From: Hormiphora californensis | Lineage: Eukaryota; Animalia; Ctenophora | Length of the DNA: 64,000 nucleotides | Reading direction: 5' to 3' | NCBI GenBank assembly: GCA_020137815.1 | Contig: CM035350.1 | Span: 8,742,001-8,806,000 of the forward strand | Part shown: in pieces, positions 15,001 through 18,000 of the stretch | How the letters are laid out: each line of letters begins with the position of its first letter | How positions within the stretch are numbered: position 1 is the stretch's first letter | Notes under the pieces: generated by a model | What the model was told of the DNA's origin: nothing | Seen by the model: the letters and a program-made list of their open reading frames with translations, nothing else | Database searches by the model: none | Made by a program: the position numbers and the translations under genes

Positions 15001-18000
15001 TCGATTTAATCTTCTCGTGCCAAATAGTGCATACATTCCTGTCTAACACTGTCCCATGATATTTCAGGGAAAACTCCATTTATGGGTTGACATCTTCCCC
15101 TACGACAGGAACCTTCCCCCACCCATCGACATTAGACCTCGACAAACGGAATCATTTGTCCTCAGGTAAAATAAATAATTTTCTTGACTTCAAGTTTAAA
15201 TCTGAACAAGTAAGCCGCTCAGAGGGAGAACTCTCATAATATTACTCCCCACTAAATACTTCACTTTTGAAGAACCTGCTATGAATATATGCTCGGAGCG
15301 TTGATTGCACCAAGACCCACCCTTTGTAAAGTGTTTCTTGGTACAATCATATATAACAGGTTGCAAAATGAACAGCATTCATTTTGAGAGAGGGGTGACA
15401 TAATATAATGAGATTATACAAAATCAAACTGGTTTTCAAAACAAGGCAACACTCTTTAGACGAACCATATAAGAACCATATAAGAACCATCGAATTCAAT
15501 CAAATAAGTTTCAACTACTTTACAAGTACACTTCAGGTTAATTGTGTGGAATACTCATGATGTTATCCTGGCAGACGAGAACATCATGGGAGAGAAAATG
15601 AGCGACATCTTTGTTAAAATGTAAGCCTTGTTACTCAACAACTAAAACCAGCCTTGTTACTCAACAACTAAAACCAGCCTTGTTACTCAACAACTAAAAC
15701 CAGCCTTGTTACTCAACAACTAAAACCAGTATAAAATCCACACAAATACTGCAAACATTTGGGATACCAATGCAGTCAGTATTATACTGATCCCTCTCTC
15801 TATTACCCTCCCAAATATTTGCTTCTTCTGTAGAAGGGAGGTGGCGATAAAATCCAGGTCATGCAATATTTAAATACTACTAAATGCATTTGTGACGCGG
15901 ACGGTTGGATAGCAGATCCGCGAGGTGACAAAACGTTTATGATGCTAACCCCCCCCCTTGACCAGTTACATGGAAGGTTTGGAGCGTTATGCTCAAGAGA
16001 CAGACGTTCATTTCCGATCTCTAACCGGTGAGGGTAACTTCAACTGGCGAATGTGCTACGATTTCGACTACCTGAAGCCGGAGCAGAAAGTTGTTTCTTT
16101 CCAAAGGGTAGGTTCAACCCATCTAGAGCACATTATATAAATGCCTGTTGACTAGATCTATTGTTAACCGAGGAAATGTTAACTTTGCAGAAAAACTTCT
16201 TTTCTCTTGACAAAGAGGAAGAGAAGCTGGAACCAGTGATTCATGTACAAGTGTACGACTATGATACATTCAGCTCCAATGATCTTATTGGTCAGTAGAG
16301 CTGATGCTGCTGATGTTTAGCTGCTGCTGCTTTATTGATAATGTCAGCTGATATATATTCAAGTTCAGCTGTTTTTGTAAAGCTGAGCTGGATGCTAAGT
16401 TGCTGTCTCAGTACTACTGAGTTGAACTTGTTGCTAAATGTGTGACTGCTGCTATAACTGTTATCAATTAATTTGACGTGTTAGAATTTGAGGATAAAAC
16501 CCTGAAGGGTCGTAGATCAGAGAATGACACACTTACTAAAAACATGGAAATTAAATCTAATTCTAATTTATTGACGTTAATTAACTATTTAATTCATTAT
16601 GCATGGCTGTGACACAAGCTGTTTTCGTTTTAGGCGAACTTCTTCGACTTTGACAAGACAGAGTTTCGATTTGATGCTAAGCTCCACATTGAAATCTATG
16701 ATTTTGATATCATTAGTACGAATGACCTGCTAGGTGAGCATGTGCTATACATAATTGTATGTGTGCTGGGGGGGGGGGGGGGGGGTTCCAACCTATTTTT
16801 TTGTATTTTTTTTGTACTTTTTTGTACGGACCATACACAAAAGTAACCAAAATTCCTGTTTTTTTTCATACAAACAATACAAAAAAATACAAAAAAATAC
16901 AAATAAATTATGAAGGATGTGGGCGCCTGATAAAAGTATAAATAATACATAGCTGGGTTCCTTTTATGTTCATGTACCACCTAGGAACGTTTTTAGTTCC
17001 ATTGTCATCCATTTTCCTGCTAAAAGTACTAAAAAAGTATGTAAAAGTACACGTTTTTGAAATTCGAAAAAGAAAAATCATTGATTCAGATTACGATTAC
17101 GAGAAAATTTTCTCAGTTGGAGATTACTTTCTCGGTACTAATTTTGATTCGGGATAATTTTCTCGGTAAGAAATTGCGATTCGGGGAAATTTCTCGCTTA
17201 GAAAATACGATTCGAGAAAATTTTTCGGTAAGAAATTGCGATTCGGGGAAATTTCTCGCTTAGAAAATACGATTCGAGAAAATTTTGTCGGTAAGAAATT
17301 GCGATTCGAGGAAATTTCTCGCTTAGAAAATACGATTCGAGAAAATTTTCTCGGTAAGAAATTGCGATTCGGGGAAATTTCTCGCTTAGAAAATACGATT
17401 CAAGAAAATTTTCTCGGTAAGAAAATGCGATTCGGAGAAATTTCTCGCTTAGAAAATACGATTCGAGAAAATATTCTCGGTAAGAAATTGCGATTCGGGT
17501 AAATTTCTCGCTTAGAAAATACGATTCGAGAAAATTTTCTTGGTAAGAAATTGCGATTCGGGGGAATTTCTCGCTTAGAAAATACGATTCGAGAGAATTT
17601 TCTCGGTAAGAAATTGCGATTCGGGGAAATTTCTCGCTTAGAAAATACGATTCGAGAAAATTTTTCGGTAAGAAATTGCGATTCGGGGAAATTTATCGCT
17701 TAGAAAATACGATTCGAGAAAATTTTCTCGGTAAGAAATTGCGATTCGGGAAAATTTCTCTCGCTTAGAAAATACGATTCGAGAAAATTTTCTCGGTAAG
17801 AAATTGCGATTCGGGGAAATTTCTTGCTTAGAAAATACGATTCGAAAACATTTTCTCGGTAAGAAATTGCGATTCGGGTAAATTTCTCGCTTAGAAAATA
17901 CGATTCGAGAAAATTTTCTCGGTAAGAAATTGCGATTAGGGAAAATTTCTCTCGCTAAGAAATTGCGATTCGATAATACTTTCTTGGATAGAAATTTCGA

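What the first reader, a model, noticed from the sequence alone, without database searches (positions are those of the whole stretch)
16191..16733. Mutually exclusive exon pair swapping the Ca2+/membrane-binding loop 3 of the last C2 domain
Seen: two homologous 100-nt exons with identical phases (0 to 1) lie between exons ending 16107 and starting 18657. Including both or neither shifts the frame. The loops read [10 protein letters not shown] versus [10 protein letters not shown]. Ferlin B has a single such exon (39257-39356, [10 protein letters not shown]). Both copies are intact despite strong divergence, which implies selection. Known: DxDxxSxxD supplies Ca2+ ligands and membrane-inserting residues. 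Inference: switchable tuning of the membrane-proximal Ca2+ sensor. I know of no such pair in vertebrate ferlins but could not search.
Basis: partly seen in the sequence, partly recalled or inferred. Interest (0 to 1): 0.78.

Follow-up and report, generated by a model that had tools for sequence, protein, structure and literature searches.

The report
Swappable membrane-binding exon in comb-jelly ferlin
A ferlin membrane-fusion gene, likely from a comb jelly, carries two old, intact, side-by-side copies of the exon for the membrane-touching tip of its last calcium-binding domain; only the first copy was seen in RNA, but the two are likely used one at a time, giving two proteins predicted to keep the same calcium ligands and grip membranes differently.

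Summary
Exons A (16191-16290) and B (16634-16733) are 100 nt, AG..GT, phase 0 to 1; using both or neither gives an early stop. They encode the beta-hairpin tip and loop 3 of ferlin C2G. Their synonymous sites are saturated, yet B keeps frame, splice sites and key residues, so it has been under selection. RNA contigs show A's two junctions, one in a related species; B was not seen in 3 of 3 shallow runs. A relative has an exon sharing three residues and a 15-nt intron word only with B, but no relative shows a pair. One correction: the side-chain Ca2+ ligand positions (D, D, S, D) are identical in A and B. The differences lie at membrane-inserting positions. Exclusivity is likely set by splicing factors plus frameshift decay; steric and docking-helix models found no support. 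Mutually exclusive C2 exons are known (Syt1, Esyt2, PMC2823689). An earlier scan note reports one in arthropod otoferlin C2B, a different exon; none covers this locus. New member of a known kind.

The parts
15966..16107 (+). Constitutive upstream exon of ferlin A (C2G core and first strand of the beta-hairpin), ends in phase 0
   Evidence: matches dysferlin, otoferlin and myoferlin chains at E 1e-12 to 1e-10; donor used in an RNA-type contig
16191..16290 (+). Variable exon A, 100 nt, phase 0 to 1: beta-hairpin tip, following strands, loop 3 ([10 protein letters not shown])
   Evidence: joint 16107>16191 in one contig of run X2; A-type end joined to the downstream exon in one contig of related run X3
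16291..16470 (+). GCTG/TGCT-rich first half of the 343-nt intron between A and B; candidate splicing-factor binding region (inferred)
   Evidence: 12 GCTG and 10 TGCT in 180 nt; 0 of 355 non-overlapping 180-nt windows reach either count; against dinucleotide shuffles GCTG 1 of 2000, TGCT 449 of 2000
16600..16605 (+). TGCATG (Rbfox-type word) ending 28 nt before exon B
   Evidence: 17 such words occur in the window, so weak alone
16634..16733 (+). Variable exon B, 100 nt, phase 0 to 1, loop 3 [10 protein letters not shown]; intact, not seen in RNA
   Evidence: no cover in 3 of 3 runs
16738..16752 (+). 15-nt intron word starting with GCATG just after B's donor, identical in the intron after the homologous exon of relative L001 (1254-1268)
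   Evidence: single occurrence in the window on both strands
16769..18498 (.). Non-autonomous DNA-transposon-like insertion in the intron after B (23-nt perfect terminal inverted repeats, 8-nt target duplication, internal 63-nt tandem array); not part of the switch
18657..18829 (+). Constitutive downstream exon, starts in phase 1
   Evidence: Ferlin_C weak hit E 0.016; related RNA-type contig lies on 18659-18714
39257..39356 (+). Single homologous exon of the tandem paralogue ferlin B (comparison only)

Best explanation
Exons A and B are an old tandem duplication in a ferlin gene, likely of a comb jelly, and are likely spliced one at a time, so the gene would make two equal-length proteins predicted to bind Ca2+ with the same C2G ligands but to insert into the membrane differently. 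Shown: two intact same-phase exons; both or neither gives an early stop; A's junctions occur in RNA-type contigs; the exon maps to the C2G beta-hairpin tip and loop 3; the ligand positions D, D, S, D are the same in both. Inferred: B is used in some cell type or stage; A is the commoner form; the choice is made by intron-binding splicing factors (GCAUG words flanking B, a GCUG/UGCU-rich tract after A), with nonsense-mediated decay removing both-in and both-out messages. Predicted effect: B has a more aromatic hairpin (extra F at exon positions 6, 11, 13) and I-I instead of T-F at the loop-3 tip, with the same net charge, which would change membrane insertion and the C2F-C2G lipid pocket, and only indirectly the Ca2+ sensitivity of vesicle docking or fusion.
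For: Frame and splice sites. Selection: A-B nucleotide identity 51 of 99 equals the codon-resampling null (53.8, sd 2.9), so synonymous sites are saturated, while 0 of 20,000 neutral decay simulations from A with 48 changes stayed open and scored as high as B. RNA: joint 16107>16191, GT..AG, one contig of X2; an A-type exon end joined to the downstream exon, one contig of X3. Structure map: both exons align without gaps to otoferlin and myoferlin C2G; PMC12526402 names L3 ligands D1829, D1831, S1834, D1837, inserted F1833 and hairpin residues M1809, F1810, W1812; PMC12264198 gives the same role to the myoferlin hairpin. Relatives: L001's exon shares F13, F24, T29 only with B among nine exons compared, and a 15-nt intron word with the intron after B. 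L001 and P0065 are 35 of 39 identical upstream but 19 of 33 in this exon, whereas ferlin B orthologues conserve the exon (25-29 of 33) at least as well as the upstream part (79-81 of 108): relatives seem to hold more than one exon type.
Against: Exon B had no cover in 3 of 3 runs, and no B-type end was seen at the downstream exon; the runs are shallow contigs, two only guessed to be RNA. No relative shows two copies: 0 of 80 loci kept (of 270 found; most are distant ferlins or spliced). In L001 the B-like exon lies directly after the upstream exon with no A before it, and the contig ends 353 nt later. L001's exon is equally identical to A, B and the ferlin B exon (17 of 33 each), and the 33-residue tree does not group it with B (supports 25-46). 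The neutral simulation puts all changes on B's side; started from the ferlin B exon it passes in 2.3% of runs. TGCT is not enriched beyond dinucleotide content. The X2 contig's 5' loose end matches ferlin B rather than ferlin A, so that contig is chimeric at its far end. No binding or Ca2+ data exist for either form.
Confidence: 0.68

Rival explanations
1. Exon B is dormant: once used, now silent or included only as rare noise, with A effectively constitutive.
For: Only A was seen in RNA. Spliced relatives L002/P0064 and P0065 carry A-type exons (22 of 33 identical to A, 14 to B). A 1.7-kb insertion lies 35 nt after B's donor and might disturb its use.
Against: B keeps exact length, open frame, both splice sites and all four ligand residues despite saturated synonymous divergence; a 15-nt word beside its donor is conserved in another species. 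The RNA sample is three shallow contig sets, which drop rare variants.
Confidence: 0.2
2. The pair mainly controls gene dosage: regulated co-inclusion of B with A, or skipping of both, makes a premature stop and sends the message to decay.
For: Both outcomes give stops well upstream of later junctions (16651, 18669). A frame-shifting exon with a conserved GCAUG-containing word beside it in L001, where no second copy is visible, would fit regulated unproductive splicing.
Against: A poison exon needs no conserved protein sequence, yet B is conserved in the C2G reading frame.
Confidence: 0.07
3. Exon B is a copy or gene-conversion product from the neighbouring ferlin B gene, not a duplicate of A, and restores a ferlin-B-like tip.
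For: B and the ferlin B exon share more nucleotides than their proteins require (64 of 99 against 56.0, P about 0.003-0.005, one of 12 pairs tested; the excess is in the 3' half). The two genes also share a 23-residue identical stretch in the upstream exon.
Against: B is only 14 of 33 identical to the ferlin B exon, lacks its lineage marks, and does not join the ferlin B clade (support 98 without B). The upstream exon pair shows no synonymous excess (P 0.18). This rival concerns origin and is compatible with B being used.
Confidence: 0.05

Closest known systems
Mutually exclusive alternative exons altering C2 domains in invertebrate Syt1, Syt34 and Esyt2 (Craxton 2010, PMC2823689; passages read)
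   Same: Alternative exons used one at a time change a C2 domain of a membrane-trafficking protein; said there to have arisen repeatedly in invertebrates.
   Different: Different protein family and lineage; here the exon covers the ferlin-specific beta-hairpin tip plus loop 3 of C2G.
Human DYSF alternative first exons (C2A) and OTOF alternative last exons (PMC8373072 supplement rows; Fuson et al. 2014 seen only as a reference title)
   Same: Tandem-duplicated homologous exons give ferlin isoforms; the DYSF pair alters a C2 domain's Ca2+ dependence according to that title.
   Different: Those are terminal exons (promoter or poly(A) choice), not an internal pair, and do not touch C2G. MYOF and FER1L gave 0 hits in that table.
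Otoferlin and myoferlin C2G in cryo-EM structures (PMC12526402 passages; PMC12264198 sections 10-11)
   Same: The exon aligns without gaps to the hairpin tip and loop 3; the four side-chain ligand positions are kept in both copies.
   Different: No alternative form of this segment is mentioned in what I read; the window's genes appear to be DysF-bearing ferlins of a separate clade, not otoferlin orthologues.
Predicted mutually exclusive exon cluster-0 of Mnemiopsis leidyi Mhc2 (PMC3912159; passages)
   Same: A homologous exon pair at a functional loop in a ctenophore gene, predicted from sequence.
   Different: Myosin motor domain, unrelated protein.
Earlier scan note e1-7832540, arthropod otoferlin C2B loop-3 exon pair (AI note, unchecked)
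   Same: Duplicated exon for a membrane-inserting loop 3 in a ferlin.
   Different: Other domain (C2B), other ferlin type and lineage; an independent event if both are real.

Membership tests
Homologous mutually exclusive exon pair | Two adjacent homologous exons of equal length and phase with intact splice sites | tested here: met
Homologous mutually exclusive exon pair | Both-in or both-out breaks the frame | tested here: met
   stops at 16651 and 18669
Homologous mutually exclusive exon pair | Each exon occurs alone in transcripts | tested here: inconclusive
   A yes, in one contig per junction; B no cover in 3 of 3 shallow runs
Homologous mutually exclusive exon pair | Both copies under purifying selection | tested here: met
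   saturated synonymous sites, 0 of 20,000 neutral runs from A match B; recent silencing not excluded
Homologous mutually exclusive exon pair | Pair conserved in related genomes | tested here: inconclusive
   0 of 80 loci show two copies; the one genomic orthologue covering the exon (L001) ends 353 nt after a single B-like exon
Steric-interference exon pair (alpha-tropomyosin type, recalled) | First exon's donor too close to the second exon's branch point | tested here: not met
   343-nt intron with 20 AG dinucleotides, the last before the acceptor 15 nt upstream; branch point inferred, not mapped
Docking-site/selector exon cluster (Dscam type, recalled) | Strong competing long-range RNA helices around the variable exons | tested here: not met
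   best perfect helix -14.0 kcal/mol; 38 of 49 same-size windows reach it; fold z -1.74; no cross-species covariation test possible
Ferlin | Multiple C2 domains, FerB, Ferlin_C and a C-terminal membrane segment | tested here: met
   FerB E 5e-25, weak C2 and Ferlin_C hits on exon-sized pieces; co-linear tblastn matches to full-length ferlins; hydrophobic segment in the exon near 19640-19785
Type 1 (DysF-containing) ferlin | DysF domain | tested here: inconclusive
   DysF-like motifs (recalled) at 6928-7200 and 29619/30031; no Pfam hit on those pieces
Ca2+-binding ferlin C2G | Loop-3 ligands D-x-D-x-x-S-x-x-D | tested here: met
   present in A and B, aligned to otoferlin; binding itself not testable here

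The most novel reading that the evidence does not exclude
Comb jellies switch the membrane-penetrating face of a nerve-net ferlin's C2G by a conserved, cell-type-specific splicing programme read by Rbfox/muscleblind-type factors, giving neurons and other secretory cells different fusion machines from one gene. This would be an independent invention, in possibly the earliest-branching animals, of the splice-tuned Ca2+ sensor known from synaptotagmin 1, and a natural two-allele experiment on the same loop whose mutation deafens mice.
Probability: 0.2. Interest if true: 0.7.

Novelty: new member of a known kind. Interest (0 to 1): 0.42.

Why it matters
C2G is the membrane-proximal domain that closes the ferlin ring on the bilayer, and its loop 3 is essential for otoferlin-driven exocytosis (PMC12526402). 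Two natural versions with the same Ca2+ ligands but different inserting residues would separate membrane insertion from Ca2+ coordination in one background. Ferlins are expressed in the Mnemiopsis nerve-net cell cluster (bioRxiv 2021.03.31.437758), so isoform use could bear on how ctenophore neurons secrete. The design itself is familiar and, by unchecked scan notes, common in this genome, which limits the surprise.

Tried and rejected
No whole genome is held for this window, so other copies in the genome and close relatives' genomes could not be searched. Protein searches for full-length relatives failed: downstream exon, longer proteins, 4 candidates and none significant; A/B/ferlin-B exon profile, 18-84 residues, no candidate; the 124-residue exon search gave 46 hits with only fragments above 50% identity. 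Alignment A2 misplaced the fragments and was not used. The ESM Atlas gave generic C2 clusters with recognition below threshold. An AlphaFold2 model of relative P0064 had mean pLDDT 46 and was not used; no fold search was run. Absence of reads on exon B and on most of 18595-19300 is not evidence of absence; runs X1 and X2 held only 0.07-0.08 of the words, and X1's contig runs unspliced across 16032-16234. Steric exclusion and docking/selector pairing were tested and not supported. The exon tree was unresolved. A haplotype or assembly duplication was rejected because A and B differ at 48 of 100 nt and their flanks are unlike. Scripts had frame slips that were corrected in 70-71. The journal version of the Mnemiopsis paper is not held and the preprint's supplements, which hold ferlin alignments, were not seen. 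Literature searches that listed no paper on such a ferlin exon pair: (listings only; one search returned 0); subscription journals are mostly not covered.

Full report
Observation. The window holds two tandem ferlin genes on the + strand, one ending near 19800 and one from about 25000 to 40300. In the first, two 100-nt exons lie at 16191-16290 (A) and 16634-16733 (B), each with AG before and GT after, between an exon ending at 16107 in phase 0 and one starting at 18657 in phase 1. Either alone keeps the frame; both together stop at 16651, and neither stops at 18669. A and B share 14 of 33 residues and 52 of 100 nt; their score of 92 stands against a mean of -37 (sd 12.6) over 127,802 positions, and no third copy exists in the window. 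They are the only tandem coding duplicate among 502 open pieces of 1-41000 (E 1.3e-10). Ferlin B has one such exon, 39257-39356.

What the exon encodes. The upstream exon matches dysferlin, otoferlin and myoferlin, and A and B align without gaps to the last C2 domain of otoferlin and myoferlin (weak E-values, as expected for 33 residues). Matching the aligned otoferlin stretch to the residue list in PMC12526402 (passages; the numbering offset is my inference and fits all listed residues), exon positions 3, 4, 6 correspond to hairpin residues M1809, F1810, W1812, which bind lipid and frame the phosphatidylserine pocket of C2F. Positions 23, 25, 28, 31 correspond to the Ca2+ ligands D1829, D1831, S1834, D1837, and positions 26-27 to H1832 and the inserted F1833. 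PMC12264198 (sections 10-11) describes the same contacts in myoferlin. Both exons have D, D, S, D at the ligand positions. They differ at the loop tip (T-F in A, I-I in B), at the backbone-ligand position (Y or F) and along the hairpin (B has F at 6, 11 and 13); each has 8 acidic and 3 basic residues (counted). So the swap is predicted to change membrane insertion, not the ligand set.

Is B alive? Nucleotide identity of A and B (51 of 99) equals what their proteins alone would give (null 53.8, sd 2.9), so the duplication is old. Yet B keeps length, frame, splice sites and 6 of 9 residues invariant in six homologues. None of 20,000 neutral decays of A with 48 changes stayed open and scored as high; this test loads all change on B, and from the ferlin B exon 2.3% pass. 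Long-term selection is likely; recent silencing is not excluded.

RNA. Three runs were offered, all as contigs, two only guessed to be RNA. One X2 contig joins 16107 to 16191 (GT..AG, 7 differences in 184 nt); its 5' loose end matches ferlin B, so it is chimeric there. One X1 contig is unspliced across that intron. One X3 contig, from a related species (10 differences in 56 nt), carries an end that translates as exon A's last nine residues directly before the downstream exon. Exon B had no cover in any of the three runs. A is used; B is untested at this depth.

Relatives. No full-length close relative was found. A profile of the two upstream exons gave 8 proteins and 80 loci of 270. None of the 80 shows two copies, but most are distant or spliced. 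Spliced relatives L002/P0064 and P0065 are A-type (22 of 33 to A, 14 to B); P0059 is closer to neither (17, 15). L001, the only genomic orthologue of ferlin A that covers this exon, is 88 of 108 identical upstream but only 17 of 33 to A and to B. It shares F13, F24 and T29 with B alone, and the intron after it holds a 15-nt word identical to 16738-16752, found once in the window; of 119 equal windows one other reached 14 and the rest 11 or less. Against this, L001 has no A before its exon, its contig ends 353 nt later, and the tree does not resolve the exon types. Ferlin B orthologues conserve the single exon at 76-88%, against 52-67% for ferlin A relatives, which fits a history of paralogous copies or faster change. 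This is indirect support only.

How exclusivity may work. The 343-nt intron with 20 AG dinucleotides does not fit steric exclusion. The best long-range helix is unremarkable (38 of 49 control windows reach it; fold z -1.74). The first 180 nt after A are the most GCTG- and TGCT-rich of the window (0 of 355 windows reach them; GCTG 1 of 2000 shuffles, TGCT 449 of 2000), and GCATG words flank B at 16601 and 16738. GCAUG is the Rbfox site (PMC4161394 passage); UGCU as a muscleblind site is recalled. I infer protein-guided choice with nonsense-mediated decay as backstop. Whether this animal has these factors was not tested.

Organism. No call names it. A comb jelly is likely: unchecked notes on other pieces of this genome say so; Mnemiopsis has two ferlin models with near-adjacent numbers, and ferlins are expressed in its nerve-net cluster (bioRxiv 2021.03.31.437758, passages and section 8); both window genes group with unnamed relatives apart from named vertebrate and nemertean ferlins. 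Orthology to the Mnemiopsis genes was not tested.

Known context. Craxton 2010 (PMC2823689, passages) states that mutually exclusive exons altering C2 domains arose several times in invertebrates (Syt1, Syt34, Esyt2). A human catalogue of tandem-exon substitutions lists a DYSF N-terminal and an OTOF C-terminal event, and no MYOF or FER1L rows (PMC8373072, passages and the first 2 of 5 supplement places per term). A ctenophore pair is predicted in myosin (PMC3912159, passages). The ferlin phylogeny paper (PMC2923515, passages) defines the types. Searches listed nothing on a ferlin C2G pair. The scan holds no note on this locus or look-alikes, one on arthropod otoferlin C2B, and 29 notes of this genome matching 'mutually exclusive exon', 8 of them shown.

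Verdict. A real, old, intact exon pair; likely mutually exclusive (0.68); B's use unproven; ligands unchanged. New member of a known kind, interest 0.42.

Noticed in passing
window 16769-18498: 1.73-kb non-autonomous element with 23-nt perfect terminal inverted repeats, an 8-nt target duplication (16761-16768, 18499-18506; hAT-like length, recalled) and an internal 63-nt x 14 tandem array; a small MITE follows at 18516-18588, with relatives elsewhere in the window.
   Followed up: partly
window 15991-16062 and 39001-39072: Ferlin A and B share 23 identical residues in the upstream exon, including residues that ferlin B orthologues lack; possible old gene conversion, but no synonymous excess over the whole exon.
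   Followed up: partly
window 16685-16732 versus 39308-39355: The 3' half of exon B shares more nucleotides with the ferlin B exon than its protein requires (35 of 48 against 29.1, P 0.008, post hoc). Unexplained.
   Followed up: partly
window 10665-12416: Ferlin A has long low-complexity open frames between C2 regions (acidic D/E/G/Y repeats at about 10900-11080, lysine-rich stretches at 11630-11720 and 12100-12250) that do not match other ferlins in tblastn.
   Followed up: no
window 16291-16294: A second possible donor 4 nt after exon A's donor (GT at 16295); using it would shift the frame.
   Followed up: no
L001 1310-1538: The intron after the homologous exon in this relative also holds an insertion, resembling a reverse-transcriptase fragment (recalled resemblance).
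   Followed up: no
window 59288-60469 (-) and 61270-62259 (-): Two long single-exon open frames (393 and 329 aa); the second resembles a LINE ORF1-type protein (recalled), the first a methyltransferase-like protein (recalled, untested).
   Followed up: no
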